Part shown: in pieces, positions 14,371 to 29,680 of the stretch
Numbering within the stretch: the first letter of the stretch is position 1
How the letters are laid out: every line of letters starts with the position of its first letter
NCBI GenBank assembly: GCA_035620735.1
Contig: DASPGH010000125.1
Location: 30,135 to 94,134, forward strand
DNA: 64,000 nt
Reading direction: 5' to 3'
DNA from: Acidimicrobiia bacterium
GTDB taxonomy: Bacteria; Actinomycetota; Acidimicrobiia; Spongiisociales; ZC4RG35
The notes under the pieces: model-generated
What the model was told of the DNA's origin: nothing
What the model saw: the letters and a program-made list of their open reading frames with translations, nothing else
Databases searched by the model: none
Position numbers and translations under genes: made by a program

Positions 14371-14385
14371 GTTCGCTCTGCGAAC
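14371..14385. promoter_or_regulatory. Palindromic IclR-type box GTTCGCTCTGCGAAC upstream of the ABC importer operon
   Basis: Perfect GTTCG-N5-CGAAC palindrome about 110 nt upstream of the binding-protein start. It differs by one nucleotide from the box in front of pcaR. A second small inverted repeat, GCCACTTTGCAGTGGC, lies at 14333-14348. Confidence 0.5.
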
Positions 14386-14470
14386 AGGTGTGCGACAGGC
14401 GGTCGGGCTGCGAGAGTACGTGCTGGCGATCGTGTCTGCAACCGGTATCGGGGGTTTCCCTGCAGCCATC

Positions 14471-15997: not shown

Positions 15998-16048
15998 GGC
16001 GAGAGACGCTAGTGACGGGTCTTCGTGGGTCGTCGGCCAGACTGCACG

Positions 16049-17494
16049 TCAGGGCAACCTCACGTATTCGAAGTCGGGTGGTTTCTGGTCGATACCCCGG
16101 GTCGGCGGGGCGATCCAGGGAGCGAAGACCCCCGGCTCGTAGTGGGGCTGCATGATGCTCTCGATGTAGTCCTGGTCAGCGCTCGTTGGCAGCCAATCGT
16201 CACGGGAGCTCTCGAACTGGCTGTCGGTGATCACCTCTCCGGTTGGGGAGACCGATAGGTCGGCAAACTCGCCGATCTCACGGTTGAAGGCAACGTGGGG
16301 GAGGGTGATCTCGAATTTCACCCCGTGGCTGGAGATCTCCTTGTTCCAGCGTCTGATCCCACCCAGGCAATCTTCCATGAAATCGTCGCGGAGTCTGGCG
16401 TTCAAGGCGTTGAGAGCAGGTATCTCAACCTGACCCAGGGCACCGTTGACCAACTTCATCACCGGATATGTCGAGTCGCGGAGGCGGTGGTCGTCCTCGA
16501 GACGGTCCTCGTGATAGCGACCCTTGAGACCGGCGTTGAAGAAGTTGGCCGCGTTTGTCGACTCTTCCGAGCCAAACAGATCGAGCGTCAACGAGTAATG
16601 CAGATTCACCTTCCGCTGGATGGCAGGGAGGTCGATCACCCCGAGCCGGCGCACGGCCTCGACGTCGTAGGGGTCCTCGATACCAGCCTCAGACATCGCC
16701 TTCGCGGTTGCCTCCACCACACGCATCACCCCGGTGTAGCCGACGAACATGTGGTGGGCTTCCTCGGCGAGCATGAAACGGCAGGTTCGTGACAACGGAT
16801 CGAACCCGGACTGGGCCAGGGCCTCGAGCTGCATCTTTCCGTCGCGGTCGGTGAAGTAGGTGAACATGAAAAAAGAGAGCCAGTCGGGGGTCTCTTCGTT
16901 GAAGGCGCCGAGCATGCGCGGCTGTTCCTCGCTGCCCGACGATCGCTTGAGGAGGTCGTCGGCCTCCTCGCGCCCGTCGCGTCCGAAGTACTTGTGGAGC
17001 AGATAGACCATCGCCCAGAGATGTCGGCCTTCTTCGACGTTCACCTGGAACAGGTTCCTCATGTCGTAGAGGGAAGGGGCGATGCTCCCCAGATGCTTCT
17101 GCTGCTCGACCGAGGCGGGCTCGGTGTCGCCCTGGATGACGATGAGACGCCGTAGCATCGATCGGTACTCGCCGGGCACCTCCTGCCACACCGGCTCACC
17201 GGCGTGAGCGCCAAAGGGGATCTCGCGCTGCTCCTCCTCCGGGGCGAGCAGGATGCCCCAGCGGTATTCGGGCATCTTCACGAAGCCGAACTTGGCCCAG
17301 CCCTCTTTCTCGACGCTGATGGCGGTGCGGAGATAGACGTCGGCCATCTGGAACCCCTCCGGTCCCATCGACATCCACCAGTCGATGTAACCGGGGTGCC
17401 ACTGCTCGAGGGCCCGCTGCAGCTTGGGGTCGTCAGCCAGCCCCACGTTGTTGGGGATAAGGCTGTCGTAGTCGACGTCTTGCCAGGTCATCAA
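16049..17494 (-). CDS. boxB: Benzoyl-CoA 2,3-epoxidase, di-iron oxygenase subunit
   Basis: 481 aa. The N-terminus ..DYDSLIPNNVGL..LQRALEQWHPGYIDWW.. and ferritin-like di-iron helices (..EEGRHLW.., ..LAEEAHHMF..) are as in BoxB. 4-nt overlap with boxC. Confidence 0.88.
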   Translation of the reverse strand: MMTWQDVDYDSLIPNNVGLADDPKLQRALEQWHPGYIDWWMSMGPEGFQMADVYLRTAISVEKEGWAKFGFVKMPEYRWGILLAPEEEQREIPFGAHAGEPVWQEVPGEYRSMLRRLIVIQGDTEPASVEQQKHLGSIAPSLYDMRNLFQVNVEEGRHLWAMVYLLHKYFGRDGREEADDLLKRSSGSEEQPRMLGAFNEETPDWLSFFMFTYFTDRDGKMQLEALAQSGFDPLSRTCRFMLAEEAHHMFVGYTGVMRVVEATAKAMSEAGIEDPYDVEAVRRLGVIDLPAIQRKVNLHYSLTLDLFGSEESTNAANFFNAGLKGRYHEDRLEDDHRLRDSTYPVMKLVNGALGQVEIPALNALNARLRDDFMEDCLGGIRRWNKEISSHGVKFEITLPHVAFNREIGEFADLSVSPTGEVITDSQFESSRDDWLPTSADQDYIESIMQPHYEPGVFAPWIAPPTRGIDQKPPDFEYVRLP

Positions 17495-19140
17495 ACCCTC
17501 CTGTGGTCGTACTCAGGTCGTATTCCTGTGCCATAGCGGCGTAGGGCCCCGGTATCTCCGGAGGCATTGGGACGTTGGAACACCCAGTTCTGCCAAGCGG
17601 TGAGTCGTCCGAAGATCTTCGTTTCCATCGTCTCCGGGCCGGGGAAGCGGAGATTGGCCTCCATGCCCGTCAAACCGTCCGGTGAGAAGGCGGCCCGCTC
17701 CTCGACGATGATGCGCAGCTCGTCGTCCCAATCGAGGTCGTCCATGGCGTCTGTCACGACACCTGCAGCCACGGCGGACTCGGCGTCGAGCTTCTCGCCG
17801 ATGACGTCGTGGGCTCTGGCCAGACCGTCGCTGTCTCCCCAGAAACGGGTCTCGAGACGGGACAGGCCATTGGACATCGGGAAACCGAAACGGTTGGCCT
17901 CGGTGAAGACGATGCGGGCGATGCCGCTCCCTTCCCCGAATCGCTCCCCGATCAGCATGTAGGAGCGATCAGCGGCCAGGGTGAGCTCGGCGAGGAACCC
18001 CGCGAAACAGGATCCGGGCTCGACGAGGGCGATGATCGTGCGAGCAGTGAGGTCCACCCGGCGCATCACACGGCCCCAGTAGAGAAGGACCTCACGAACG
18101 AACCAATGGTCGGCCTGGGTGAGGAGCAAAGTGTCGTATGCCAGGACCAGCCCGGGGTCGCCCCGGCTGTGGATCGAGATGGAGCCGACCTCCAACTCGT
18201 TGACCCGAAGGTGGAGAATGGCGTCATCGAGCTCGCGGGCCAGACGGAGCGGCCAGAAGCCGGCGCCTGCAGACACTGCTTCGTCGCCGTCGACTGGTGG
18301 CGACTCTTCAGGGCCGTGAATGGTAAGGGCTGCCGTTCGCTCCGTCCGGTCGATCTCGACGCTCACCGTCGTGTATGTGATCCGGTCTCCGTCGATGACC
18401 CGGTCGAGTGGCGTGAGGGTCACACCCGTGGCATCTGAGGGTCGGTCGCTCCCGGCCGCGAGCTCCTGTGCTCTCTTCGCCACCGTCTCGTCGAAGGACG
18501 GGGCCGGCACCAGTTCGTCGACCAGGCCCCATTCCAGAGCCCGCGACCCTTTCACACCTTCTTCGAGGGTGCAGAAGACGTCGGCCCGGTCGCGGCGTAC
18601 GTGCCGTTTGTCGGTGAGACGGGTGAGCCCGCCGGTGCCGGGCAGGACGCCGAGCAGAGGGACCTCAGGCAGGGAGACCGAGGCATTGCGGTCGTCGATC
18701 AGCATCAGGTGATCCGCGGCCAGGGCCAGCTCGTACCCCCCGCCGGCGGCGTTGCCACCGATGGCGGCGATGTAGCGCTGGCTGGAGTTTCTGGTGGCGT
18801 CCTCGATGGCATTGCGGGTTTCGTTGGTGAACTTGCAGAAGTTGACCTTCAGTGGGTGGGAGGCAGACGCCAGCATCCCGATGTTGGCACCGGCGCAGAA
18901 CATGCGATCGAGGACCGACCCGATCACCACCGCTCCTACCTCCGGATGCTCGAAGCGAAGACGTTGCACGGCGTCGGCCAGCTCGATGTCCACTCCCAGG
19001 TCGTATGAGTTCAGCTTCAGCTCGTATCCCGGATCGAGTCCGCCATCGGGGTCGACTGCCATGTCCAGATAGGCGATCGGACCTTCGACCCGCAGCCTCC
19101 AATGACGGTAGGAGTCTGGGTTGGTCTGGAAGTCGATCAC
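17491..19140 (-). CDS. boxC: 2,3-epoxybenzoyl-CoA dihydrolase (benzoyl-CoA-dihydrodiol lyase)
   Basis: 549-aa double crotonase-fold protein (..YELKLNSYDLGVDIEL..FCAGANIGML..) of BoxC length, placed next to boxB. GTG start. Confidence 0.85.
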   Translation of the reverse strand: MIDFQTNPDSYRHWRLRVEGPIAYLDMAVDPDGGLDPGYELKLNSYDLGVDIELADAVQRLRFEHPEVGAVVIGSVLDRMFCAGANIGMLASASHPLKVNFCKFTNETRNAIEDATRNSSQRYIAAIGGNAAGGGYELALAADHLMLIDDRNASVSLPEVPLLGVLPGTGGLTRLTDKRHVRRDRADVFCTLEEGVKGSRALEWGLVDELVPAPSFDETVAKRAQELAAGSDRPSDATGVTLTPLDRVIDGDRITYTTVSVEIDRTERTAALTIHGPEESPPVDGDEAVSAGAGFWPLRLARELDDAILHLRVNELEVGSISIHSRGDPGLVLAYDTLLLTQADHWFVREVLLYWGRVMRRVDLTARTIIALVEPGSCFAGFLAELTLAADRSYMLIGERFGEGSGIARIVFTEANRFGFPMSNGLSRLETRFWGDSDGLARAHDVIGEKLDAESAVAAGVVTDAMDDLDWDDELRIIVEERAAFSPDGLTGMEANLRFPGPETMETKIFGRLTAWQNWVFQRPNASGDTGALRRYGTGIRPEYDHRRV

Positions 19141-19154
19141 GTGCCGATACTAGG

Positions 19155-19170
19155 CTGACCGCGTGGTCAG
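19155..19170. promoter_or_regulatory. Perfect inverted repeat CTGACC-GCGT-GGTCAG in the boxC / TetR divergent spacer (candidate TetR operator)
   Basis: 16-bp palindrome 15 nt from the boxC start codon, overlapping the AGGAG preceding the TetR gene. Confidence 0.45.
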
Positions 19171-19180
19171 GAGCAACCAG

Positions 19181-19813
19181 TTGGCAGCCGAGTTCGACGT
19201 CGATGTCACCCCTACCCAGACCCGTAGCCCGCGGGAGATGGAGATCATCAGGTCGGCATATCGGACCATGGCCCACAGCGGTTCACATCGCATCTCCCTG
19301 CGTGAGGTGGCCACCGAGGCCGGCGTGTCGAAGGCCCTTCTGCTCTACCACTTCGGGACCAAGGAGGCTCTGCTTTTCGCTGCGATGAAGTGGGCGCTGG
19401 AACGCACCGCGGTCAGGATCAGGGGAGGTCTGGAGTCTGCCTCACGCCCCCGTGAGCAGATCGGCGCCCTCATCGATGCGATCTTCGTGGATGCCGAGGC
19501 GAATCGCGAGTTCTACCTCTTCTATCTCGACCTTGTCGAGCACGCCAGCAGAAGCCCCGGGTTCGGGGAGCTCTCCGGGACGCTGGACCAGATCATCAAC
19601 GGGCTGTTCGCCGAGGTGATAGGTAACGGCGTGACAGATGGTGTCTTCTCGGTGGACGATGTCGACGTGGCGGCACGTCACATGAGAGCCTTGATCGAGG
19701 GCACGTTTCTGCAGTGGATCCAGACAACCGATTGGCGTGAGAGTCATTCGCAGTGGAAGTCGGACTGTCGGGTCGCGTTGCTCCTGCTGCTCGGCGTCGT
19801 TCAGGACTCTTGA
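19181..19813 (+). CDS. TetR-family transcriptional regulator
   Basis: ORF 19163..19813 with HTH ISLREVATEAGVSKALLLYHFGTKEAL. The start is uncertain. TTG 19181 has AGGAG 7 nt upstream; alternatives are GTG 19163 and ATG 19238. The 3' end overlaps the convergent thioesterase gene by 13 nt. Confidence 0.8.
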   Translation: MAAEFDVDVTPTQTRSPREMEIIRSAYRTMAHSGSHRISLREVATEAGVSKALLLYHFGTKEALLFAAMKWALERTAVRIRGGLESASRPREQIGALIDAIFVDAEANREFYLFYLDLVEHASRSPGFGELSGTLDQIINGLFAEVIGNGVTDGVFSVDDVDVAARHMRALIEGTFLQWIQTTDWRESHSQWKSDCRVALLLLLGVVQDS

Positions 19814-20202
19814 CCGGACGGCTGCAATGCTGCTCTCAGATCGGGAGTCCAGGGTCGTTTCTCGCCGGTCTCGCGGTCGATGAACACCGCCACCAGCTTT
19901 CCTGACGCCACCAGGTTCGCCCCGTTCGAAACCTCGATCCGATAGGTGACCGAGGTCTCGCCGAGAGTGGCTACTGACAGGTCGACCTGGACCACGTCGT
20001 CGAATCCGAGTGCACGGCCAAAGTCGAACTCGGTGCGCACCCGTGGAGTCGCCCCGAACGTCTGGTCGATGATCCCGAGTTGGCGGTGCAGCTCGGCCTC
20101 GGCTTCTTCGGTCCAGCGGGTGACCACCGAGTGGTGCCAGATGCCGGCGGCATCGGTGTCCATCCATTGGACCCGGCGTTGTATCGAGATCTCGGGTGTC
20201 AT
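19801..20202 (-). CDS. Hotdog-fold acyl-CoA thioesterase (4HBT/YbgC type)
   Basis: 133 aa. ..VQWMDTDAAGIWHHSVVTRW.. is typical of 4HBT-type thioesterases. ATGA overlap with the upstream hydrolase gene. Confidence 0.75.
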   Translation of the reverse strand: MTPEISIQRRVQWMDTDAAGIWHHSVVTRWTEEAEAELHRQLGIIDQTFGATPRVRTEFDFGRALGFDDVVQVDLSVATLGETSVTYRIEVSNGANLVASGKLVAVFIDRETGEKRPWTPDLRAALQPSGQES

Positions 20203-20969
20203 TGATCCAAATTCACGATGAAGTCGACAACGGTACCGGTGACGACGTCCGGGTCGGTGAGATGGGGAGAGTGTCCCGCCCTCTCCACGATCAGCCGTTG
20301 TGGCTTCACCACCAATCCTGCCTCGATCGCCTCGATCTGGCGCATCGTCCCGTATTCATCGTCGGTACCTTGAACGACCAGGGTGGGACAGGTCACGCCC
20401 GGCAGGTACTCCTCGATGTTCCACGATCGGAACGCAGGGCTGAGCCAGACGTCGGCCCACCCGTAGAACGTCGCTTCCGGATCGACGTGGTATTTCGCCA
20501 TGCGCTCGGCCAGGTCGCTGTCGGTGAACCGCTGCCGGATCGCCGCTATGGCCTCGAGACCTTCACGTTCCGTTAAGACGTGGGGTGCGATCAGCACCAG
20601 GGCTCGCACCGAATTCTCCGCCCCGGCATAGATGATGGAGATGGAGGCGCCATCGGAGTGTCCGATCAGTATCGGAGGGGCCCCGACCAACTGCTCCAAC
20701 ACCTCGGGCAGGGTCCTCAGAGCTTCGTCGTGCATGTAATCGGGTGTCCGCGCAGATTGCAGTGGGGTGGACCAGCCGTTACCGCGTCTGGAGAAGATCA
20801 GCCCTGGGCGTCTCGTGCGGGCTACCAGGTCGTCGGCGAACTCGCGCCACAACTCGACACTGCCCAGACCCTCGTGGAGGAAGACCAGCGGTGTCCCTTC
20901 GAACTCCGTGCCGAGACGCCGGTAGTGGAGCTCTGCGCGGGCGACAGAGAGGAAGGTACGTCCACTCAC
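20199..20969 (-). CDS. Alpha/beta-hydrolase fold protein (candidate enol-lactonase or C-C hydrolase)
   Basis: 256 aa with PLVFLHEGLGS and a nucleophile elbow GHSDGA. 4-nt overlaps with the HpaB-like gene and the thioesterase gene. Confidence 0.7.
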   Translation of the reverse strand: MSGRTFLSVARAELHYRRLGTEFEGTPLVFLHEGLGSVELWREFADDLVARTRRPGLIFSRRGNGWSTPLQSARTPDYMHDEALRTLPEVLEQLVGAPPILIGHSDGASISIIYAGAENSVRALVLIAPHVLTEREGLEAIAAIRQRFTDSDLAERMAKYHVDPEATFYGWADVWLSPAFRSWNIEEYLPGVTCPTLVVQGTDDEYGTMRQIEAIEAGLVVKPQRLIVERAGHSPHLTDPDVVTGTVVDFIVNLDQ

Positions 20970-22465
20970 AGCCAGGGGCCGCGTGTCCAGCCCTCGAGGT
21001 CGTAGTCCTCCATCGCCATATTCACCAACTCGGCCATCCTGTCGAGACTTCCCCGCTGCTCGGCGAAGTCGACGACGTTGAGACGGACCAGCTCCGGGCT
21101 CCCCCCGTAGTTTCGCTCGTAGAGCGTGTGTCGGACGCCGAACTCGCTGCCGATGGCGTCCCAGAGCAACTTGAAGAGCTTTATTCGGTCGTGAGCAGAC
21201 CCGGTCGAGCCCCGGTAGTAGCGGTCGATGAGAGGGCGCAGCTCCTCGCTTTGGAGGTCGCGGTAGCTCGATGGGATCACCAACGGGCTCCCACCGAGGA
21301 TCTCACCGGCGGTCTCCTCGACCTTGGGCCAGGCCATCGCCCCGAACAGTCGGACCAGAACCGCATACTCCAACTTGGGGATGGCCATGCCACCCGGGCC
21401 TTCTTCGGGGTCGAGAGCGAGAGCGGAGGTCAGGGCCCACATCAGATTGCCCCAACCGATCAACTCACCGAGTTGTGCTCGCACACCCCGGAAGCCGGCG
21501 GTGCCGTTGGCCTCCAGGGCCTGGGCGATCAGACCGCAAATGAAGTCGAACTTGACGGCGAGACGGGTGCCCGACTGCAGCGTGTAGCGGTTCATGAACC
21601 CGGAGGCTGCGTAGAACCCGGTCGCCTTCTCGACGTCGCGGTAGACGAGGACGTTCTCCCATGGGATGAAGGCGTCGTCGAAGATCACCACGGCGTCGTT
21701 CTCGTCGAACCGAGAGGACAGCGGATTGTCCCATGGCGACTGTGCCGATTCCTCATAGGAGCGTCTCGAGATCAGCTTCATACCGGCAGTGTCCATGGGG
21801 GCGATGAACACGATGGCGTAGTCCTCCGCCTCGCCCTTCTCGAGTTGGACGGCAGCGTTCTGGGCCACGAACGTGGCATGGGTCAGCGCTGAGCCCGTGG
21901 CCAGCATCTTCGCCCCGCGGACCACCATGCCGTCGTCTCGCTCGGCGACGACGTGGAGATAGACATCCTCGACTTCGTGCACCGCCCTGTTGCGGTCGAT
22001 GGGAGGATTGATCAAGACGTGGTTGAGGAACAGCGCCCGGGAGGCATAGCGCCGATACCAGGTCTCGGCGGTCGACTCGAACGGGCTGTAGAAGTCGGGG
22101 GCGGCACCCAGAGTCGCCATGAACGCCGCCTTGTAGTCGGGGGAACGTCCCATGAAGCCATAGGAGAGCCGGGCCCACTCGGCGATCGCTTCTCGGGCTG
22201 CGAAGAGCTCGTCACCCGAATAACTGGGCATGAAGAATTTGTGGGTGGTTATCCCCGACCTGTCGACTCCGAGGAGAGTGTCGGTCATGTCCGGGTCGTG
22301 GAGGGCGTCGTAGAGCCGCGCCATCGAGCGCGCCGAGTTGCGAAACGCCGGATGGCTGGTGACATCTTCGACCTTCTCACCGTCGATGTACACCTCGCGG
22401 CCATCGCGGAGACTCTCCAGATAGCTCTCACCGTCGAGCAGCGTGTTCTCGGGCTTCTCGCTCAT
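20966..22465 (-). CDS. HpaB-family (4-hydroxyphenylacetate 3-hydroxylase-like) flavin-dependent oxygenase component
   Basis: ORF 20966..22561. Start moved to ATG 22465 (MSEKPENTLLDGESYLESLRDGREVYIDGEKVEDVTSHPAF.., CAGGAGA upstream). Acyl-CoA-dehydrogenase-like fold of group D flavin monooxygenases. Confidence 0.8.
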   Translation of the reverse strand: MSEKPENTLLDGESYLESLRDGREVYIDGEKVEDVTSHPAFRNSARSMARLYDALHDPDMTDTLLGVDRSGITTHKFFMPSYSGDELFAAREAIAEWARLSYGFMGRSPDYKAAFMATLGAAPDFYSPFESTAETWYRRYASRALFLNHVLINPPIDRNRAVHEVEDVYLHVVAERDDGMVVRGAKMLATGSALTHATFVAQNAAVQLEKGEAEDYAIVFIAPMDTAGMKLISRRSYEESAQSPWDNPLSSRFDENDAVVIFDDAFIPWENVLVYRDVEKATGFYAASGFMNRYTLQSGTRLAVKFDFICGLIAQALEANGTAGFRGVRAQLGELIGWGNLMWALTSALALDPEEGPGGMAIPKLEYAVLVRLFGAMAWPKVEETAGEILGGSPLVIPSSYRDLQSEELRPLIDRYYRGSTGSAHDRIKLFKLLWDAIGSEFGVRHTLYERNYGGSPELVRLNVVDFAEQRGSLDRMAELVNMAMEDYDLEGWTRGPWL

Positions 22466-22520
22466 GTCTGTCTCCTGATCGAGCCACCTTAAAGGCGCGT
22501 CCCAAGGGCCTTCCTCGGTG

Positions 22521-24059
22521 TCATGTCCACCCCGCCGCGGTGCGCAGGATGTGTCCGGCATCGCTCTCCGCTCTGTCTCCCATCCAGGCGACGAAGTGGT
22601 CCGGTCTCACCAGGACGGGCTCGGGGTAGAGGTCTTCGGAGATCACGTCGAGGGGGAGGTCGAGATCTCGGGCCGCCCTCGAGAAGGCCTCTCCCAGCGA
22701 CTTGGAGAGAGCGATCACGGTGAAACCCGAGCTCAGCCTGGAGAGCAGGCCCGGGTCGCCCCGCTCCGGCGGTGGCAGGTGATGTCCTGGTTTGGTGAGA
22801 AAGGTGTGCTCACCCACGGCTCCGGGGCGACCCGACGCACATACGACGATCGAAGAGCCCTCGTAATGCGGTTCGAACCGGCTCACTCCTGCTCCGGCGG
22901 CGGCGATGCGACGCTGTTCCCACGCCTCCTCGAAATCTGCCAGATCCCGTGTCGGATCGTGACGGCGGATGAATTCGCGGTCGTTCTCGATGAAGGTCTC
23001 GATGAAGTCCCTCGCCGTCGACTCGAAAACCGGCCGGCGCTCTTCCGAATACGAGTCGACCAGCGCATCCCCACCCCAACCATGGAGCCTCGCCGCCAGT
23101 TTCCACCCGAGGTTGCGAGCATCCTCGAGCCCGGTGTTGATCCCGTAGCCCCCGTAGGGAGGGTGCGAGTGGGCTGCGTCGCCGGCTATGAGAACCGGGC
23201 CGTTTCGATATGTGTCGGCGGTGGTGATGCGCAGATCCCAAAAGCCCAGGTAGTCGAGGGAGAGGGCAAACCTCGCACCAACGGTGTCGTAGAGAGTCGT
23301 CTCGTAGTCGAACGTCGCGGCCTCCGAGGACGGGTCGACAGGTGCGTGGAAGAACCACTGCTGGCCTACGTCGACCCTTCCGAGGAACCTCCAGTAACCG
23401 TCCAGGTCGGGATCGAGGACGTTGAAGAACGCCGTCGGCCCGAATCTCGCCTCTAGTAGCTGATGGAGCTGGTGAGAGCGAAACACCAGGAGAACCATCT
23501 TGCGAGCCGGCCCTGACCTGGTCTCGGTGATTCCCGCCCGCTCTCGCACCAAAGAGTGGCTGCCGTCGCATCCGACCAAATAGCTGCATTGGACTCGTTG
23601 GCCGGTGCCGGTGAGGGCGACTGCTCCCTCTGCTGAGACCTCTAGATCGACCACTTGTTCCCCGTACAGGGCGGTGACGCCATTCAGATCCTCTACGCGT
23701 CTGCGCAGCACCTGTTCGGTCAGGTACTGGGGAAGACGCTCACTCGAGGTGAAGTAGAAACGATCGACCTGACTGCGGCGAAACCAAGGATGGGCGTAGT
23801 CACTCATCAATGATCCGTATGCATTCACGCCCACTGCCGGGTAGCTGTCGGGCATCAGACGAGCCTGTCTGATCGCTTTCTCCACACCCCAACGAATGAA
23901 GTGCTCCATCGTCCGCTGGGTCAGGTTCTGACCCTTGGGGATGTCGTGAACCTCGCTCGTTCTCTCGATGAGGACGACGTCCACGCCCCGCTGGCCCAGT
24001 TCGATGCTCAAGCCCAGCCCGACCGGGCCGCCACCGACTATCACAACCTGTGTCTCCAC
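22521..24059 (-). CDS. FAD-dependent aromatic-ring hydroxylase (PheA/TfdB/MhpA class)
   Basis: 512 aa. VVIVGGGPVGLGLSIELGQRGVDVVLIE (GxGxxG), ..YLVGCDGSHSLVR.. (DG motif) and ..IAGDAAHSHPPYGGYGINTG.. (GD motif) are present. Confidence 0.85.
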   Translation of the reverse strand: METQVVIVGGGPVGLGLSIELGQRGVDVVLIERTSEVHDIPKGQNLTQRTMEHFIRWGVEKAIRQARLMPDSYPAVGVNAYGSLMSDYAHPWFRRSQVDRFYFTSSERLPQYLTEQVLRRRVEDLNGVTALYGEQVVDLEVSAEGAVALTGTGQRVQCSYLVGCDGSHSLVRERAGITETRSGPARKMVLLVFRSHQLHQLLEARFGPTAFFNVLDPDLDGYWRFLGRVDVGQQWFFHAPVDPSSEAATFDYETTLYDTVGARFALSLDYLGFWDLRITTADTYRNGPVLIAGDAAHSHPPYGGYGINTGLEDARNLGWKLAARLHGWGGDALVDSYSEERRPVFESTARDFIETFIENDREFIRRHDPTRDLADFEEAWEQRRIAAAGAGVSRFEPHYEGSSIVVCASGRPGAVGEHTFLTKPGHHLPPPERGDPGLLSRLSSGFTVIALSKSLGEAFSRAARDLDLPLDVISEDLYPEPVLVRPDHFVAWMGDRAESDAGHILRTAAGWT

Positions 24060-24080
24060 CTGGGTCGGGAGCTCAGCTCC

Positions 24081-25478
24081 TCAGGAGGCGCTCCTCCAGC
24101 TGCCTCCATACTCCTCACGGGCTGTCTTCGAGTAGGGGGTGGGGGCGACCTTGACCCGGATTTCGGTCTGTTTGTGACGCTCGACGGTGATCTTTTCGGT
24201 CCCGCCGTCTTCCTCGCCCCACACCAGGATGAGTTCGTCGCCGATGTCGACTCCGGCGTCGACTGTGCCCAGCGAGATGAAGGCGCGGTCGTTGAACGTG
24301 TAACCGCTGAACATGGAGAACCCGACCACCTCATCGTCCTTGAGCACGGCGTCGTAGGAGGCCGATGTGTAGTTGGAGAGAGGAAGGTCGATGTGCTTGA
24401 AGTTCTCTCCAGGGTCGTTGAACAGGGAGGCCCACACCCGTACGACGTCATCGGGGTTCCACTCGAACGTGACCTTGTGACGTTGCTCGTCGGGGTCGAG
24501 TGCTTCCAGAGCTTCCCGTCCCACGAAGTCATGGTCGAACTTGACGTAGAAGTCATAACCCAGGGCGTGGGGTGTCAGGTAGTAGTCCTCGATGTCGTCG
24601 GAGACGAAGCTCCCTCCGATGGAACCACCCGCCTCATAGCCGTCTCCGGGAAGCCATTCCCGGTACGCCTTCATCTGATCCCCGCTGTAGACGGCGGGGA
24701 GCGGTGACGGGATCCATCCCGACTCGAGGGTGTTCGTTGCGTAGGCGCGGGCGCCCACGGGGACGAGCCCGAACTCCTCACCGGCTTCGAGGATGGCGGT
24801 GCGTACCTCGTCGCCCTGCTCGTATGGCCCCCAGATCTCCACACCGGGCTCACCCGCCATGCCGTGACGCAGTGCCGGCACCTCGCGTCCCGCCACCTTC
24901 ATGGTCCCGATGTTGAAGAACCTGATGTCGTCGAGTGGCCCACCATTCAGCTTCTCGATCACTTGCTGGGCTTTGGGTCCCTGGATCTGAAAGCGGTAGT
25001 GACGTCGTTTGATCGCCCTGTCGCCTGGACGTGACGGCGATCGATCGTCACGGATCAAATCGACGTCCCAGTCGCCGGTCTCAGCATGGAACTGGGTCCA
25101 GTTCACACTGGGCGCCCGGCCCACCATGTTGTACTCGTGCTCTTCGGGATGGAAAAGGATCATGTCGCCTATGACGTATCCGTCGTAGCTGACCGGGACG
25201 TAGTGCTTCGCCTTGGTTGTGGTGAATCCGTCGAGGCTGTTGATGGCGAGATGAGAGATGAGGTCCCCGGCGTCGGGACCCTTGACGTTGAGCTCGGCCA
25301 TGTGATGGGACTGGTCGTAGAGAACCGCAGATTCGCGCCAGGCCCGTTGCTCGTCTCGCCAGTTGGAGAACTCTGGTGCCACCACCGGGTACACGTATGC
25401 TCCTATCTGGGAGTTGCGGAGCATCTCCACCGGGTTGCCCACCGCCTGCAGTTTCTCCTCGAGACTCGAATAGCTCAT
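24081..25478 (-). CDS. Tetrahydrofolate-dependent aromatic O-demethylase, LigM/DesA type, copy 2
   Basis: ORF 24081..25664. Start moved to ATG 25478 (MSYSSLEEKLQAVGNPVEMLRNSQIGAYVYPVVAPEFSNWRDEQRAW.., GGAGGAA upstream), giving 465 aa. Confidence 0.88.
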   Translation of the reverse strand: MSYSSLEEKLQAVGNPVEMLRNSQIGAYVYPVVAPEFSNWRDEQRAWRESAVLYDQSHHMAELNVKGPDAGDLISHLAINSLDGFTTTKAKHYVPVSYDGYVIGDMILFHPEEHEYNMVGRAPSVNWTQFHAETGDWDVDLIRDDRSPSRPGDRAIKRRHYRFQIQGPKAQQVIEKLNGGPLDDIRFFNIGTMKVAGREVPALRHGMAGEPGVEIWGPYEQGDEVRTAILEAGEEFGLVPVGARAYATNTLESGWIPSPLPAVYSGDQMKAYREWLPGDGYEAGGSIGGSFVSDDIEDYYLTPHALGYDFYVKFDHDFVGREALEALDPDEQRHKVTFEWNPDDVVRVWASLFNDPGENFKHIDLPLSNYTSASYDAVLKDDEVVGFSMFSGYTFNDRAFISLGTVDAGVDIGDELILVWGEEDGGTEKITVERHKQTEIRVKVAPTPYSKTAREEYGGSWRSAS

Positions 25479-25528: not shown

Positions 25529-25543
25529 GTTCGTAGGACGTAC
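25529..25543 (+). promoter_or_regulatory. PcaR-type box GTTCGTAGGACGTAC upstream of the ligM-like copy 2 operon
   Basis: Sits 51-65 nt upstream of ATG 25478 in the divergent spacer. Same GTTCG-N5-CGTAC frame as 4592-4606. Confidence 0.45.
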
Positions 25544-25597
25544 ACCTGTCCGCCAAGCGTACACGGGTCGTCACCGACGGAACCCAGGAACCGTCTT

Positions 25598-25639: not shown

Positions 25640-26845
25640 ATGGATGGAACCATGAGTGAGGCACCCGACCTTCTCGGTGAAGACGACCGACCGGCGTTCT
25701 TCCCGATCGCCAACGCGGCGGAGATCGGGTTGGAGGCGCCCGAGCAACGGCACGGCGCCAGCGTCCGGACCTTGGTGAGGGCCGTGGCCGGGATGCAGAA
25801 GGAGTCCCTTTCCATAAACGGCTCCAATGCCCGCGCCTGGAGACTGGTCAGCGACGAAGGCCCCTATCTGGCCGGACATGACCGGGCGCCCTGCCCGCTG
25901 TGCACGTTCATCACCGGGATGGTGTCTTCTTACATGAACGAGATCCAGGGCCTGGCCCGCCGGCGTGGTCTCGACATCGCAGACATCGAACTCACCTTGG
26001 GAAATCACTACAGCATGGAGGGATCGGCCCTCCAGGGCACGATGCTCGGCGGCGCGATGCCACCTGAGTTGACCGTGGACATCGCCGCCGATGCCGCCAC
26101 CAGCGATCTGAACGATCTGGTTCTCGAGGCCGTGGAGGCGTCACCGGTGAATGGTTTGCTCAGCGGTGAGAACAACGGGCTGTTCAACCTGGTGTGGAAT
26201 GGCGAGCAGATCCCCGTTGGCGAGGTCCTGGCCATGGGGCGACCTGCGGATCCCGACCCGCACGATGCGTTCTCGGCCGTGGAGATCGCCGACCTTCCGG
26301 TTGCCGAAGACATCATGATCAAGGTCAAGCCCGCTGACCAGGTCGAGGGAGTGCCCGGTGGCATCAACACCAGCCTCCAGGAGTCACAGAGCCGCACCCT
26401 CCACGTCCAGGCCCGGTGCCGGGTGCGGGAGGACGGCGTCAAAGTGATCAACGAAAACCTGTTCCAGCCCATCGGGTCTGAGTTTCGGTTTCTCAGCGAC
26501 GAGTCACCCGAAGACGAGGGCAGCGGGCTCGCCCCCGATGCCTTGACCTATCTGGCGGCCGGTCTCGGATTTTGTTTCATGACTCAGTTCGGCCGGTATG
26601 CCTCGATCACCAAGAAACGTCTCGACGCCTACCGCATCGTCCAGGATATCCACTTCGCACCCGGGGGAGCCTCGGGAGGAGACCGCGGCCCGGGCCGGGC
26701 CGACCCTGTGGAGACCCACGTTTTCCTGGATACGCCCGAGGGAGCGGAGTTCGCTCGCAAGACCCTGGACATGGGGGAAAGGACCTGTTTTCTCCACGCC
26801 ACCTGCCGCACCGACCTCACTCCCAAGATCGAGATCGCGTCGTGA
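25640..26845 (+). CDS. Tandem OsmC/Ohr-like domain protein (function unknown)
   Basis: ORF 25598..26845; the start is ATG 25640 or 25652. Two OsmC-like halves are visible: ..SDEGPYLAGHDRAPCPLCTFITGMVSSYM.. and ..SDESPEDEGSGLAPDALTYLAAGLGFCFMTQFG..ERTCFLHATCR... Domain call made by eye only. Confidence 0.6.
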   Translation: MDGTMSEAPDLLGEDDRPAFFPIANAAEIGLEAPEQRHGASVRTLVRAVAGMQKESLSINGSNARAWRLVSDEGPYLAGHDRAPCPLCTFITGMVSSYMNEIQGLARRRGLDIADIELTLGNHYSMEGSALQGTMLGGAMPPELTVDIAADAATSDLNDLVLEAVEASPVNGLLSGENNGLFNLVWNGEQIPVGEVLAMGRPADPDPHDAFSAVEIADLPVAEDIMIKVKPADQVEGVPGGINTSLQESQSRTLHVQARCRVREDGVKVINENLFQPIGSEFRFLSDESPEDEGSGLAPDALTYLAAGLGFCFMTQFGRYASITKKRLDAYRIVQDIHFAPGGASGGDRGPGRADPVETHVFLDTPEGAEFARKTLDMGERTCFLHATCRTDLTPKIEIAS

Positions 26846-26893: not shown

Positions 26894-27769
26894 TCACCTG
26901 AAGTCGTAGAGGCGCTGCGGGTTGGCCACCAGGATGCGTTGTCTGGTCGCCTCGTCGGGGGCGAAGTCGGCCAGCAGATCCACCAGGTCGCCGTCGTCGG
27001 GCATGTGACGCACGTTGGGGTGGGGCCAGTCGGTCCCCCATAGGACGCGGTCCGGCGCCGTCTCGATCAGTCGGCGGGCAAAGGGCACCACATCGTCATA
27101 GGGCGGTGGCCCATCGGCCGTGAGCCGTTCGGCGCCGGAGATCTTGACCCAGGCTCGTTCGTTCCGTCCGAGCAGCTCGACCAGATAGGCGAACGGCTCC
27201 TGCCCGATCCCATCCTGCGTCTTCACCCTGGCCATGTGGTCGATGATGAAGGGCACGGGCAGGGAATCGAAGAGCTCCTCGTGTTTAGGGAGATCGTCCG
27301 CGTCGAAATGCAGGTCGAGATGCCATCCCATCGGCTCCACCCGGCCGACGAGACCCAAGAGTTGGTCCAGATCGGGCTCAGATCCGAGGTGTCTCACGAA
27401 GTTGAAGCGGATCCCACGCACACCAACATCGTGCATCCCCTCGAGCTGACCGGGAGTGTGCGAGTCGTCGATCATGCCAACTCCGGCGAACCGACCGGCC
27501 CCCACCTGGAGAGCGTCGAGCATGGCCGCGTTGTCAGACCCGTGGCAAGACGCCTGGACGATCACGGCGCGCTCCAGGCCGAGACGCTTCTGAAGACCGA
27601 GGAGGTCGTCGACACCGGAGTCCGGCGGGGTGTAGGAGCGATCGGCGGCGAAGGGAAACCTGTCGGCAGGACCGAAAACGTGACAGTGGGCGTCGCAGGA
27701 GCCCGGTGGCGGCTCGAAACGAGTCGGGGGATGAGGGTTTGGATGTGGCGGGGGGATGGTCGGTTCCAT
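26894..27769 (-). CDS. ligI: 2-pyrone-4,6-dicarboxylate lactonase (amidohydrolase_2)
   Basis: 291 aa. ..PPPGSCDAHCHVFGP..FPF...YTPPD.., ..VIVQASCHGSDNAAMLDAL.., ..GIRFNF.., ..IIDHM.. and ..WGTDWPHPN.. match my recollection of LigI block for block. Confidence 0.85.
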   Translation of the reverse strand: MEPTIPPPHPNPHPPTRFEPPPGSCDAHCHVFGPADRFPFAADRSYTPPDSGVDDLLGLQKRLGLERAVIVQASCHGSDNAAMLDALQVGAGRFAGVGMIDDSHTPGQLEGMHDVGVRGIRFNFVRHLGSEPDLDQLLGLVGRVEPMGWHLDLHFDADDLPKHEELFDSLPVPFIIDHMARVKTQDGIGQEPFAYLVELLGRNERAWVKISGAERLTADGPPPYDDVVPFARRLIETAPDRVLWGTDWPHPNVRHMPDDGDLVDLLADFAPDEATRQRILVANPQRLYDFR

Positions 27770-28842
27770 CAGTACGAACGTGGATAGACCATTCCGTCCA
27801 TGAGCATTCGGGCAGTGCGGACGATGCCCGCCGCAGCCACTGTCGGCGGTTCATCCTCGGTCAGCGTCACTGTGGCGTCCATCGAGCCGGTGGGATGCTC
27901 CAGTCTGATCACGTCCGACTCCGTGTGCTGGAACACCGTGGCTGCGGGCGACCCGGGGAGGAGACAGGCAGTCGCCACCGAGACCGCTCCGAGCACACCG
28001 ATCGAGATGTGACAGCGATGCGGGATGAACGTCCGTGTGGAGATGTTCCCCGAGTCTCGTGGCGGCGCCACCAGGGTGAGCTTCGGGATGGTCATGGCGG
28101 ACACGTCGCCCAGACCCATCAGACGCCCGGCAGAAAGCCTGATCGTCTCCAGACGCTCACGGAGCTCGTCGTTGGACTCCAGTTCGGAACACGTCTCGTA
28201 GCCGGTGATCGCGAAGTCCCCGGCTCGCATCACCACAACCGGCATTCCGTTGTCGATGAGGGTGGTCTCCACTCCGTCCACCTCATCGACGAAGCGGCCC
28301 GTGGGTAGGAGTGCACCGGTGGTCCCTCCGGCGACGTCGACGAAGTCGATGTCGATTCGGGCTGCCGTGCCAGGCACGCCCGAGATCGATGTATCGCCGT
28401 CGTAAACCGGCACGCCACCCTCCACTGGGAACCGGGAGATGGCCAACCCGTCTGTGTTACGCATCCAGATGCGGACCTCGGACGTTCCGTTGTCGGCGGG
28501 GACAAGTCCTCTTTCGACGGCGAACGGCCCCACCGCAGCGAGCATGTTTCCGCAATTCTGCCGGTCCGTGATGGTGGGCTCGTCGACGCCAGGCTGAAGG
28601 AACAGATATTCGACGTCGGCCTCCTCCCGGCTCGAGGGAGAAACCACAGCCACCTTGGTGGTGAGAGGATGGGCCCCTCCGACGCCGTCGATTTGACGGG
28701 GGTCGGGTGTCCCCATGACCGCCAGCAGAAAGCGGTCTCTCTCCTTCTCGTCGTCGGGCAGATCGGCCTCGAGGAAGAAGGCCCCCTTCGAGGTGCCGCC
28801 CCGCATCAGGGCGGCTCGAACGCCAGCTCCGGTGCTGCTCAT
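27769..28842 (-). CDS. galD: 4-oxalomesaconate tautomerase / delta-isomerase (PrpF family)
   Basis: 357 aa. MRGGTSKGAFFLEADLP.. and ..NCGNMLAAVGPFAVE.. are PrpF/GalD/LigU hallmarks. 1-nt overlap (TGATG) with the ligI start. Confidence 0.82.
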   Translation of the reverse strand: MSSTGAGVRAALMRGGTSKGAFFLEADLPDDEKERDRFLLAVMGTPDPRQIDGVGGAHPLTTKVAVVSPSSREEADVEYLFLQPGVDEPTITDRQNCGNMLAAVGPFAVERGLVPADNGTSEVRIWMRNTDGLAISRFPVEGGVPVYDGDTSISGVPGTAARIDIDFVDVAGGTTGALLPTGRFVDEVDGVETTLIDNGMPVVVMRAGDFAITGYETCSELESNDELRERLETIRLSAGRLMGLGDVSAMTIPKLTLVAPPRDSGNISTRTFIPHRCHISIGVLGAVSVATACLLPGSPAATVFQHTESDVIRLEHPTGSMDATVTLTEDEPPTVAAAGIVRTARMLMDGMVYPRSY

Positions 28843-28951
28843 CGGGGTGATCTCATGGGTCGGCGCGGGAGTCTAGGAAGGTGACTTGGACCCCGTGTTG
28901 TCATGGTCGCCCCGCGACGCCGGGAACCCGGGCTTCGCTTAGGGTTGCGCC

Positions 28952-29680
28952 ATGACTGGTGAAGCACTCATGGTCGTCAGCGCCCATGTCGGGGATTTCG
29001 TGTGGCGGGCCGGTGGGGCGATCGCCCTCTACTCGAGTCGTGGCCATGAGGTGCACGTGGTTTGCCTCGCCTATGGGGAGCGCGGCGAGTCGGCGCGATT
29101 CTGGCGTCAGGGCATGGGCCTGGAGGAGGTCAAGAAGGCGCGTCATGAGGAGGCGGTAGCTGCAGCCGGTGTTCTCGGTGCCGAGCTGCACACCTTCGAC
29201 GGCGACGACTACCCCCTTGTCGAAACCCCCGCGCTCCTCGATCGCCTGGTTCGCATGTATCGCGAGGTCATGCCGACCGTGGTGCTCACCCACACCGAGC
29301 GCGATCCCTGGAATCGAGATCACGAGACGGCGTTCGGCATGGCGACGAAAGCCCGCATCATCGCCCAGGCGGCCGGGTACGACCCCGGCGGCGAGGTGTT
29401 GGGAGCTCCTCCTGTATTTCTGTTCGAGCCACATCAGTCGGAGTACTGCGGGTTCATGCCCGACGTCCTTCTGGACATCACCGAGGTCTGGGAGAAGAAG
29501 CTGGAGGCAATGCACTGTCTCGAGGGACAGCAGCATCTCTGGGACTACTACACCGACGTGGCCAAACGGCGGGGAGTCCAGGCGAAGCGGAACTCGGGAC
29601 CCAACCTGGGCCTGAAGTCCGAGACCATGGGTGAGGCCTACCAGCGGGTATATCCCCAGGTGGCCTCTGAGCTGTCATGA
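28952..29680 (+). CDS. galB: 4-oxalomesaconate hydratase, GalB type (PIG-L/LmbE zinc hydrolase fold)
   Basis: 242 aa. ..VVSAHVGDFVWRAGGAIA..GHEVHVVCLAYGERGES.. and ..VLTHTERDPWNRDHE.. match the LmbE-like fold. Context between galD and galC. ATGA overlap with galC. Confidence 0.75.
   Translation: MTGEALMVVSAHVGDFVWRAGGAIALYSSRGHEVHVVCLAYGERGESARFWRQGMGLEEVKKARHEEAVAAAGVLGAELHTFDGDDYPLVETPALLDRLVRMYREVMPTVVLTHTERDPWNRDHETAFGMATKARIIAQAAGYDPGGEVLGAPPVFLFEPHQSEYCGFMPDVLLDITEVWEKKLEAMHCLEGQQHLWDYYTDVAKRRGVQAKRNSGPNLGLKSETMGEAYQRVYPQVASELS

What the first reader, a model, noticed from the sequence alone, without database searches (positions are those of the whole stretch)
19801..25478. Uncharacterised five-gene operon: O-demethylase - FAD ring hydroxylase - HpaB-like oxygenase - alpha/beta hydrolase - hotdog thioesterase
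All five genes are on the minus strand behind one spacer that carries a PcaR-type box. The gaps are 21 and 55 nt, followed by two 4-nt ATGA-type overlaps (20966-20969 and 20199-20202). The set combines demethylation, two different hydroxylases, a hydrolase and a CoA thioesterase. It has no ring-cleavage dioxygenase and no flavin reductase partner for the HpaB-type component. This does not match any textbook peripheral pathway that I can name. It could funnel a methoxylated phenolic towards protocatechuate or gallate for the two lower pathways encoded nearby. Alternatively, the thioesterase and hydrolase may belong functionally to the adjacent box genes; a benzoyl-CoA thioesterase is known in Azoarcus box clusters.
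Basis: inference. Interest (0 to 1): 0.55.

Follow-up and report, generated by a model that had tools for sequence, protein, structure and literature searches.

The report
Three aromatic-catabolic modules fused into one array
The five genes are real and probably share one transcript, but related genomes show three separately inherited pieces (a lignin-monomer demethylase with a flavin hydroxylase, a stand-alone HpaB-type phenol hydroxylase, and a hydrolase/thioesterase pair that travels with the benzoyl-CoA 'box' genes), not one new five-step pathway.

Summary
Five minus-strand genes lie at 19801-25478, with gaps of 21 and 55 nt and two 4-nt overlaps (one is GTGA, not ATGA). The upstream spacer carries two tandem PcaR-type 15-bp boxes.

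The genome is a soil Acidimicrobiia MAG. Comparative genomics splits the array into three modules.

- **Module A, ligM plus the FAD monooxygenase.** In four other loci of Acidimicrobiia genomes these sit beside a divergent double-OsmC gene and ligI-galD-galB-ligK. In two of those loci (other genera) a TRAP transporter follows and no box genes.
- **Module B, the HpaB-type oxygenase.** It is found in 7 of 22 genomes of the genus. Its upstream neighbour differs each time, and in two genomes it is unlinked from the hydrolase.
- **Module C, the alpha/beta hydrolase plus YbgC-type thioesterase.** In all 19 Acidimicrobiia-type loci recovered, the hydrolase sits with boxC, boxB or the benzoate-CoA ligase. 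This matches the lactonase and thioesterase described for proteobacterial box clusters.

The 'single novel pathway' reading is not.

The substrates of the FAD monooxygenase and of HpaB remain unknown. Flavin reductase genes exist elsewhere in the genome. PcaHG is the only clear ring-cleavage dioxygenase in the assembly and may feed gallate into the LigI branch as PDC.

Overall this is an ordinary mosaic catabolic island with two enzymes of unknown substrate.

The parts
25529..25562 (+). Two tandem 15-bp PcaR-type boxes (GTTCGTAGGACGTAC and GTCCGCCAAGCGTAC, 19-bp period) in the ligM/osmC2 divergent spacer
   Evidence: 5 exact matches in the window against 1.0 expected. The same tandem spacing occurs at 4573/4592; the region is invariant in 5 genomes.
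24081..25478 (-). g1: tetrahydrofolate-dependent vanillate/3-O-methylgallate O-demethylase (LigM type)
   Evidence: NF047885, 718 bits against a cut-off of 580. GCV_T domain; 52% identical to the DesA-like copy at 640-2043.
22521..24059 (-). g2: single-component group-A FAD monooxygenase with a weak (below cut-off) match to the C-terminal aromatic-ring hydroxylase domain; substrate unknown
   Evidence: homologues carry only generic names, with a few JGI names '4-hydroxyisophthalate hydroxylase'; paired with ligM and osmC2 in four other loci.
20966..22465 (-). g3: HpaB-type (two-component, reduced-flavin-dependent) phenol 3-hydroxylase oxygenase subunit, with no reductase gene alongside
   Evidence: HpaB-2, 574 bits, below the cut-off of 885; 507 bits to E. 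coli HpaB; the phenol-binding Arg/Tyr/His are conserved and the carboxylate loop is altered.
20199..20969 (-). g4: alpha/beta hydrolase with a G-H-S-D-G nucleophile elbow (Ser105) and His233; the hydrolase associated with box clusters
   Evidence: beside box genes in 19 of 19 Acidimicrobiia-type loci; fold Z 27.4 to 9l75 and 25.4 to valacyclovir hydrolase.
19801..20202 (-). g5: YbgC/4HBT-class hotdog acyl-CoA thioesterase (invariant DTD motif); likely an aryl-CoA (benzoyl-CoA) thioesterase
   Evidence: found with the hydrolase or box genes in 17 of 19 loci; the nearest annotated relatives sit in aryl-CoA ligase / aryl-CoA hydroxylase clusters.
19163..19813 (+). TetR-family regulator, divergent from boxC and convergent with g5; candidate operator CTGACCGCGTGGTCAG at 19155-19170
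   Evidence: TetR_N, TetR_C_6; conserved position.
16049..19140 (-). boxB (16049-17494) and boxC (17491-19140), the partners of g4 and g5
   Evidence: TIGR03225, 859 bits; TIGR03222, 874 bits.
25652..26845 (+). Double OsmC-like gene, the conserved divergent partner of ligM
   Evidence: synteny.
26894..28842 (-). ligI-like PDC hydrolase (26894-27769) and 4-oxalomesaconate tautomerase (27769-28842)
28952..30381 (+). PIG-L family gene at the position expected for a GalB-type OMA hydratase (28952-29680), and the LigK/GalC aldolase (29677-30381)

Best explanation
The array is a junction where three independently inherited catabolic modules have come to lie head-to-tail on one strand in one Acidimicrobiia genus. 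They are probably read as one transcript from a PcaR(IclR)-controlled promoter upstream of ligM.

**Module A (ligM plus the FAD monooxygenase)** belongs with the divergent double-OsmC gene and the ligI-galD / galB-ligK lower pathway.
- LigM removes the methyl group of vanillate (giving protocatechuate) and of 3-O-methylgallate (giving gallate), using tetrahydrofolate.
- The FAD enzyme is a single-component NAD(P)H-dependent hydroxylase of a hydroxybenzoate-type acid. Its substrate is unknown.

**Module B** is a stand-alone HpaB-type oxygenase. It ortho-hydroxylates a 4-substituted phenol with reduced flavin supplied in trans by one of three flavin reductases encoded elsewhere.

**Module C (hydrolase plus thioesterase)** is the accessory pair of the benzoyl-CoA epoxide (box) pathway.
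- The thioesterase releases CoA from benzoyl-CoA or hydroxybenzoyl-CoA when the pathway stalls.
- The hydrolase clears a lactone or ester side product.

Shown: gene identities, synteny patterns and regulator boxes. Inferred: co-transcription, substrates and physiological roles.
For: **Module C**
- In all 19 Acidimicrobiia-type loci recovered with the hydrolase, it lies within a few kb of boxC, boxB or the benzoate-CoA ligase. The thioesterase is present in 17 of them. hpaB is present in only 3, and ligM plus FAD in only 2.
- In L026 and L034 hydrolase-thioesterase-boxC-boxB run on one strand with no tetR between them.
- The same hydrolase family sits beside boxCB or the CoA ligase in 8 proteobacterial loci. 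On a Thermus plasmid it sits with benzoate-CoA ligase, a thiolase and an aldehyde dehydrogenase.
- PMC6449761 lists a COG2267/COG0596 lactonase and a COG0824 thioesterase as box-regulon members.
- The nearest annotated relatives of the thioesterase lie in aryl-CoA ligase / aryl-CoA hydroxylase clusters.

**Module A**
- The order ligK-galB-galD-ligI / osmC2 / ligM-FAD recurs in L028, L030, L110 (G233) and L112 (G241). In L110 and L112 a TRAP transporter and an SDR follow, with no box genes.
- Identically spaced tandem PcaR-type boxes occur in front of ligM and of pcaIJ/pobA.

**Module B**
- hpaB orthologues are in 7 of 22 genomes of the genus. The upstream neighbour is FAD (G000), a demethylase paralogue (G008) or pcaB (G020). 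In G001 the gene lies downstream of the thioesterase.
- In G017 and G010 it sits among unrelated genes, on a different contig from the hydrolase.
- The phenol-binding residues of E. coli HpaB are conserved, and three flavin reductase genes lie elsewhere in the genome.
Against: - In this genome the five genes are packed tightly enough (4-nt overlaps, no terminator) to be expressed together. A shared physiological role is therefore not excluded.
- hpaB is adjacent to the hydrolase-thioesterase pair in all four genomes where the two are linked at all.
- At about 45% identity the hydrolase family occurs in some 50 proteobacterial loci with unrelated neighbours, so 'box lactonase' is a context label, not a demonstrated activity.
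- There are no transcript data, and no biochemical data exist for any of these five proteins.
Confidence: 0.7

Rival explanations
1. One reading: the five genes encode one coherent, so far undescribed peripheral pathway. It demethylates and twice hydroxylates a methoxylated phenolic (possibly as a CoA ester) and delivers protocatechuate or gallate to the nearby lower pathways.
For: Tight same-strand packing behind one regulated spacer. The chemistry is plausible, because an HpaB-type or FAD hydroxylase acting on vanillate at C5 would give 3-O-methylgallate, a LigM substrate. Both lower pathways lie in the window.
Against: All five genes were found together only in G000 and G001, both in one genus, and with a different gene order in G001. 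Each sub-module occurs without the others in other genomes. The hydrolase and thioesterase follow box genes, not ligM.
Confidence: 0.1
2. hpaB, the hydrolase and the thioesterase form a functional trio in this genus. The HpaB-type enzyme hydroxylates a thioester-bound 4-hydroxyaryl substrate (as SgcC does with a carrier-protein-bound tyrosine derivative), and the thioesterase or hydrolase then releases the dihydroxy acid.
For: hpaB touches the pair in G000, G008, G001 and G020 although its other neighbour differs each time. The protein scores nearly as well against PDB chain 4oo2 (480 bits; deposited as 'chlorophenol-4-monooxygenase', which I recall to be SgcC) as against E. coli HpaB (507 bits). 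The loop that binds the 4-hydroxyphenylacetate carboxylate in E. coli HpaB is altered and 2 residues longer.
Against: In G017 and G010 hpaB and the hydrolase lie on different contigs. Sixteen of 19 hydrolase loci have no hpaB nearby. Nothing in the sequence points to CoA or carrier-protein binding.
Confidence: 0.12
3. The hydrolase is the missing 3-oxoadipate enol-lactonase (PcaD) of the window's protocatechuate branch, not a box enzyme.
For: The window has pobA, pcaC, pcaHG, pcaB and pcaIJ but no pcaD. No gene in the genome reaches the PcaD cut-off. In G020 the order is pcaB-hpaB-hydrolase.
Against: g4 scores only 31-42 bits against the PcaD model (cut-off 256). Four other genes in the genome score 99-147 bits. 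Its synteny follows box genes, not pca genes.
Confidence: 0.06

Closest known systems
LigM of Sphingobium sp. SYK-6 (tetrahydrofolate-dependent vanillate/3-O-methylgallate O-demethylase)
   Same: g1 passes the NCBIfam equivalog model (718 bits against 580) over its full length. A DesA-like paralogue is present in the same window (785 bits against a cut-off of 800), as in SYK-6.
   Different: The host is an actinobacterial (Acidimicrobiia) MAG. The gene is paired with an FAD monooxygenase and a divergent double-OsmC gene. In SYK-6, from my own knowledge, ligM sits with metF and ligH.
E. coli HpaB (4-hydroxyphenylacetate 3-monooxygenase, oxygenase component; PDB 6qyh/6eb0), and PDB 4oo2 (which I recall to be SgcC)
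   Same: Full-length match at 507 bits (480 bits to 4oo2). The Arg/Tyr/His that hold the phenolic OH are conserved.
   Different: It scores below the HpaB-2 equivalog cut-off (574 against 885). The substrate-carboxylate loop (S210-A211-Q212 in E. coli) reads A-A-V, with two extra residues just after it. No hpaC reductase and no clear hpaD pathway genes are nearby.
Lactonase (COG2267/COG0596) and thioesterase (COG0824) of proteobacterial box clusters (Azoarcus/Aromatoleum; Gescher et al. 2002 as cited in PMC6449761)
   Same: The protein classes are the same (alpha/beta hydrolase and 4HBT/YbgC hotdog), and so is the linkage to boxCB and the benzoate-CoA ligase.
   Different: Direct sequence comparison with the Azoarcus proteins could not be made. 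Here regulation is by TetR and PcaR-type elements rather than BoxR, and the pair is now downstream of hpaB. The activity of the 'lactonase' is itself only proposed.
HipH, 4-hydroxyisophthalate hydroxylase of Pseudomonas putida NCIMB 9866 (Chao et al. 2016, cited in PMC13599478)
   Same: It is a group-A flavoprotein hydroxylase acting on a 4-hydroxybenzoate-type acid. Several homologues 53-59% identical to g2 carry this name in JGI.
   Different: The name is an automatic label on relatives. No comparison with the HipH sequence was possible. g2 is linked to ligM, not to xylenol genes.
Pseudomonas putida KT2440 gallate pathway (galA-D), and the conversion of gallate to PDC by PcaHG
   Same: A GalD-type tautomerase, a PIG-L family gene in the GalB position, the LigK/GalC aldolase and PcaHG are all in the window. 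PcaHG of KT2440 is reported to turn gallate into PDC (PMC12481942).
   Different: There is no GalA/LigB-type gallate dioxygenase. A LigI-type PDC hydrolase is present instead, which would make PcaHG plus LigI the entry into the branch. That route is inferred.

Membership tests
LigM (vanillate/3-O-methylgallate O-demethylase, NF047885) | Full-length match above the curated equivalog cut-off, with a GCV_T folate-binding domain | tested here: met
   718 bits against a cut-off of 580, residues 6-465 on model positions 1-461. GCV_T, 141.8 bits.
LigM (vanillate/3-O-methylgallate O-demethylase, NF047885) | Tetrahydrofolate-dependent demethylation of vanillate and 3-O-methylgallate | not testable with these tools
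   Needs an enzyme assay.
HpaB, 4-hydroxyphenylacetate 3-monooxygenase oxygenase component (TIGR02310) | Score above the equivalog cut-off | tested here: not met
   573.9 bits against a cut-off of 885.2. It belongs to the HpaB superfamily (PF11794 plus PF03241) but is not an equivalog.
HpaB, 4-hydroxyphenylacetate 3-monooxygenase oxygenase component (TIGR02310) | Phenol-binding Arg113/Tyr117/His155 (E. coli numbering, from my own knowledge of the structures) | tested here: met
   alignment: MGRSPDYK and LNHVLINPPIDR align with MGRTPDYK and FNHAIVNPPIDR.
HpaB, 4-hydroxyphenylacetate 3-monooxygenase oxygenase component (TIGR02310) | Carboxylate-binding loop S210-A211-Q212, and a partner flavin reductase HpaC encoded alongside | tested here: not met
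   the loop reads A-A-V, with two extra residues just after it. PF01613 genes occur only on contigs C32, C29 and C2.
Box-cluster accessory hydrolase ('lactonase', COG0596/COG2267) | Alpha/beta hydrolase fold with a Ser-His(-Asp) catalytic set | tested here: met
   (invariant GHSDG and GHSPH). (pLDDT 81; Z 27.4 to 9l75, Z 21.2 to the enol-lactonase 2xua).
Box-cluster accessory hydrolase ('lactonase', COG0596/COG2267) | Conserved linkage to boxB, boxC or the benzoate-CoA ligase | tested here: met
   19 of 19 Acidimicrobiia-type loci, plus 8 proteobacterial loci. Thermus plasmid. Caveat: about 50 proteobacterial homologues have unrelated neighbours.
Box-cluster accessory hydrolase ('lactonase', COG0596/COG2267) | Orthology to the Azoarcus evansii box lactonase, and lactone hydrolysis | not tested
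Benzoyl-CoA thioesterase of box clusters (4HBT/YbgC class, COG0824) | Hotdog fold with the N-terminal catalytic Asp motif of the YbgC/4HBT class | tested here: met
   4HBT_2, 4HBT; TIGR00051, 48.5 bits, below the cut-off of 68.7; invariant W-x-D-T-D-A-A-G-I-W-H-H.
Benzoyl-CoA thioesterase of box clusters (4HBT/YbgC class, COG0824) | Linkage to box genes; activity on benzoyl-CoA | tested here: inconclusive
   Linkage is met (17 of 19 loci), and relatives sit in aryl-CoA clusters. Activity is not testable here.
HipH-type 4-hydroxyisophthalate hydroxylase | Sequence orthology to HipH, and decarboxylative hydroxylation ortho to the phenol | not tested
   The only link is JGI automatic names on homologues 53-59% identical to g2. 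The HipH paper and sequence are not held.
PcaR/IclR regulon | Repeated 15-bp box of the form GTTCG-N5-CGCAC (P. putida PcaR box, from my own recollection) in promoter regions, with an IclR gene nearby | tested here: met
   5 exact sites against 1.0 expected; tandem pairs with a 19-bp period; a third tandem pair at 14371/14390 with one mismatch each; IclR gene at 2053-2832; conservation. Binding itself was not tested.

The most novel reading that the evidence does not exclude
Module A, together with PcaHG, is a syringyl/guaiacyl route in Acidimicrobiia that needs no LigB-type dioxygenase. The proposed steps are: DesA-like enzyme and LigM make gallate; the intradiol enzyme PcaHG converts it to PDC; LigI, GalD, GalB and LigK finish the job. 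All of this would be under one PcaR-type regulator.

The conserved FAD monooxygenase would then be a new hydroxylase that pushes further substrates into this branch. One option is decarboxylative hydroxylation of 5-carboxyvanillate (HipH-like). Another is C5-hydroxylation of vanillate or protocatechuate to 3-O-methylgallate or gallate.
Probability: 0.2. Interest if true: 0.55.

Novelty: new member of a known kind. Interest (0 to 1): 0.3.

Why it matters
Tight operon-like packing in a MAG need not mean one pathway. Here it marks a junction between a lignin-monomer island and a benzoyl-CoA island. That corrects the annotation: the hydrolase and thioesterase go with box, and ligM and the FAD gene go with the PDC/gallate branch.

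It also leaves two well-defined targets for biochemistry, both in a poorly studied soil class (Acidimicrobiia):
- a rare FAD monooxygenase clade linked to ligM (5 of 301 genomes sampled in the class);
- a stand-alone HpaB clade with an altered substrate loop.

The side observation may matter for lignin valorisation. The LigI/GalD/GalB/LigK genes occur without any LigB-type dioxygenase but beside PcaHG and under shared PcaR-type boxes. This points to a natural gallate-to-PDC route through PcaHG.

Tried and rejected
The contexts of FAD-monooxygenase homologues came from the genome search, the fetch from genomes and the plasmid collection instead.
- **Papers not held:** Gescher 2002 and the HipH paper. 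No paper was found for PDB 9l75.
- **Strict palindrome and shared 14-mer search of the ligM spacer** found nothing. The boxes emerged only from the five-genome alignment.
- **The TetR palindrome CTGACCN4GGTCAG** occurs only once, in the boxC/tetR spacer. There is therefore no sign that TetR also acts upstream of g3 or g4.
- **PcaD role for g4:** rejected on score.
- **Local reductase for HpaB:** none.
- **LigB-type gallate or protocatechuate 4,5-dioxygenase:** the genome has only a DOPA-dioxygenase-like gene and a weak HpaD-like gene.
- **ESM Atlas** gave only generic names for g2.
- **The Sagittula and Comamonadaceae plasmid contexts of g2 homologues** (46-51% identity) show aromatic-acid uptake or hydroxycinnamate genes but no defined function.
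- **The fold search of g4** gave generic esterase and lactonase neighbours only.
- **The unpublished genome G038** appeared only as a distant HpaB hit (37% identity).

Full report
**What is there**

The window comes from a 3.23-Mb, 135-contig MAG (95% complete). Its closest public relatives are soil Acidimicrobiia MAGs (record titles).

On the minus strand between 19801 and 25478 there are five ORFs.
- g1 (24081-25478) is a LigM equivalog: 718 bits against a cut-off of 580.
- g2 (22521-24059) is a group-A FAD monooxygenase, with FAD_binding_3 and a weak match to the C-terminal ring-hydroxylase domain. Its best PDB relative is RebC at only 146 bits.
- g3 (20966-22465) has the HpaB_N and HpaB domains. 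It scores 507 bits to E. coli HpaB and 480 bits to PDB 4oo2 (which I recall to be SgcC), but lies below the HpaB-2 equivalog cut-off.
- g4 (20199-20969) is an alpha/beta hydrolase.
- g5 (19801-20202) is a YbgC/4HBT hotdog thioesterase.

The first overlap is GTGA, not ATGA. No terminator-like or sigma-70-like site lies inside the array, so co-transcription is plausible but unproven.

A plus-strand TetR gene (19163-19813) lies between g5 and boxC and overlaps the end of g5 by 13 nt. The array is therefore not part of the boxCB transcript.

**The regulatory spacer**

An alignment of the ligM/osmC2 spacers of five genomes shows an invariant core. It resolves into two 15-bp boxes of the form GTYCG-N5-CGYAC, 19 bp apart (25529-25543 and 25548-25562).

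The exact pattern occurs five times in the window against 1.0 expected, and 0 of 100 shuffles reach five. The other sites are:
- an identically spaced pair in the pcaJ/pobA spacer (4573, 4592);
- one site in front of the IclR gene (2853).

With one mismatch allowed, a third pair with the same 19-bp spacing appears at 14371/14390, upstream of the ABC-transporter binding-protein gene.

The box resembles the P. putida PcaR box as I recall it (GTTCGATAATCGCAC).

**Module C: hydrolase plus thioesterase belong to the box genes**

A scan of one genome per species with an alignment of the hydrolase returned 80 loci. Mapping this window's proteins onto them gave the following for the 19 Acidimicrobiia-type loci, L023-L041:
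- the hydrolase lies within a few kb of boxC, boxB and/or a benzoate-CoA ligase 67-84% identical to the window's in all 19;
- the thioesterase is present in 17, and directly downstream of the hydrolase in 13;
- hpaB is present in only 3;
- ligM plus the FAD gene are present in only 2.

In L026 and L034 the order hydrolase-thioesterase-boxC-boxB runs on one strand. Homologues also flank boxCB or the ligase in 8 proteobacterial loci. On a Thermus thermophilus plasmid a homologue sits with benzoate-CoA ligase, a thiolase, an aldehyde dehydrogenase and a PaaI thioesterase.

This matches the published description of proteobacterial box regulons. Those contain a COG2267/COG0596 'lactonase' and a COG0824 thioesterase, the latter thought to protect the CoA pool (PMC6449761).

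The nearest annotated actinobacterial relatives of g5 (33-42% identity) lie between aryl-CoA ligases and salicylyl-/aminobenzoyl-CoA hydroxylases. g5 keeps the invariant DTD motif of this thioesterase class.

The g4 model has pLDDT 81. It is closest to 9l75 (Z 27.4) and to human valacyclovir hydrolase (Z 25.4). These are generic esterase/lactonase neighbours.

One caveat applies. At about 45% identity the hydrolase family also occurs in roughly 50 proteobacterial loci beside unrelated genes (CrtC-like lipocalin, FtsX/MacB, EamA, Dus). The activity is therefore not defined by the family as a whole.

**Module A: ligM plus the FAD monooxygenase belong to the PDC/gallate branch**

Orthologues of g2 (about 60% identity) are rare: 5 of 301 genomes sampled in the class. 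Where found, they sit with ligM and a divergent double-OsmC gene next to ligI, the OMA tautomerase, a PIG-L family gene and ligK. This holds for L028, L030, L110 (G233) and L112 (G241).

In L110 and L112, which are from other genera, ligM-FAD is followed by a TRAP transporter and an SDR, with no box genes. In the window's genus the box island therefore occupies the place of that transporter.

The window also holds a DesA-like demethylase (785 bits against a cut-off of 800; 52% identical to g1), together with pobA, pcaC, pcaHG, pcaB and pcaIJ.

The true gene at 28952-29680 is a plus-strand PIG-L family protein. That is the family of the GalB hydratase (my own knowledge). The minus-strand ORF at 28901-29536 is not the gene.

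g2 homologues carry only generic names, plus a handful of JGI labels '4-hydroxyisophthalate hydroxylase'. HipH of P. putida NCIMB 9866 is the characterised enzyme of that name (PMC13599478). I could not compare sequences with it. Plasmid-borne homologues in Sagittula stellata E-37 and a Comamonadaceae strain lie beside IclR/hydroxycinnamate genes and an aromatic-acid-type binding protein respectively.

**Module B: hpaB is a mobile single gene**

Orthologues (70-91% identity) occur in 7 of 22 genomes of the genus and in one genome of another family.

| Genome | Position of hpaB |
|---|---|
| G000 | follows the FAD gene |
| G008 | follows a demethylase paralogue |
| G020 | follows pcaB |
| G001 | downstream of the thioesterase |
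| G017, G010 | among unrelated genes, with the hydrolase on another contig |

The residues that hold the phenolic OH in E. coli HpaB are conserved. The loop that binds the 4-hydroxyphenylacetate carboxylate is different and two residues longer. The substrate is therefore probably another 4-substituted phenol.

The genome has three flavin reductase genes elsewhere. In my understanding that is enough for this enzyme class, which takes up freely diffusing reduced flavin.

**Ring cleavage**

In the whole assembly the only intradiol dioxygenase is PcaHG. The only LigB-family genes are a DOPA-dioxygenase-like protein and a weak HpaD-like protein.

G233 carries the full module A, yet has no LigB-family gene at all; G213, which has the FAD gene and osmC2 but not the rest of the module in the region fetched, also has none.

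[quoted passage not shown] A coherent inferred route follows: syringate to 3-O-methylgallate to gallate (DesA-like, LigM), then PDC (PcaHG), then LigI, GalD, GalB and LigK. This is inference only.

**Verdict**

- The 'single novel pathway' interpretation is not supported.

The array is a mosaic junction of known kinds of genes, with two enzymes (g2, g3) of unknown substrate.

Noticed in passing
whole assembly G000; box genes at window 14471-19140: No BoxA (benzoyl-CoA epoxidase reductase component) anywhere in the 95%-complete assembly: the best hit is 29.6 bits against a cut-off of 459. BoxB therefore lacks its usual electron donor. The related loci mapped here show ligase-boxB-boxC strings, but boxA was not among the queries used.
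   Followed up: partly
window 26894-30381; genomes G233, G213: LigI, the OMA tautomerase, a PIG-L family (GalB-position) gene and LigK occur without any LigB-type gallate or protocatechuate 4,5-dioxygenase. There is no PF02900 hit at all in G233 and G213. PcaHG, reported elsewhere to turn gallate into PDC, may be the entry enzyme.
   Followed up: partly
window 14371-14404: A third tandem pair of PcaR-type boxes (one mismatch each, same 19-bp period) lies between the benzoate-CoA ligase gene and the ABC-transporter binding-protein gene. This suggests the IclR regulator also controls that transporter.
   Followed up: partly
window 28901-29680: The real gene here is the plus-strand 242-aa PIG-L family protein (28952-29680), at the position expected for the OMA hydratase. 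The minus-strand 211-aa ORF (28901-29536) has no family match and is probably spurious.
   Followed up: yes
window 5923-6276 and whole genome: pcaC lies between pobA and pcaH. No gene in the genome reaches the PcaD (enol-lactonase) cut-off; the best candidates score 99-147 bits on contigs C95, C129, C131 and C26.
   Followed up: partly
L030:5616-7199 (-): In one related MAG a 527-aa aldehyde dehydrogenase (a BoxD candidate) sits on the opposite strand between the FAD monooxygenase and the hydrolase, in the place hpaB occupies in this window.
   Followed up: no
loci L042-L102: Homologues of the hydrolase at about 45% identity are widespread in Burkholderiales, Hyphomicrobiaceae and even Syntrophales MAGs. 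There they recur beside a CrtC-like lipocalin, an FtsX/MacB transporter, an EamA transporter, a class II aldolase and a Dus gene. This is an unexplained second context for the family.
   Followed up: partly
window 25652-26845: The double OsmC-like gene is the conserved divergent partner of ligM in four other loci and shares the PcaR-box spacer in all of them (in a fifth, L111, it pairs with the FAD gene instead, and that spacer was not examined). It may detoxify peroxide or quinone by-products of gallate or 3-O-methylgallate.
   Followed up: partly
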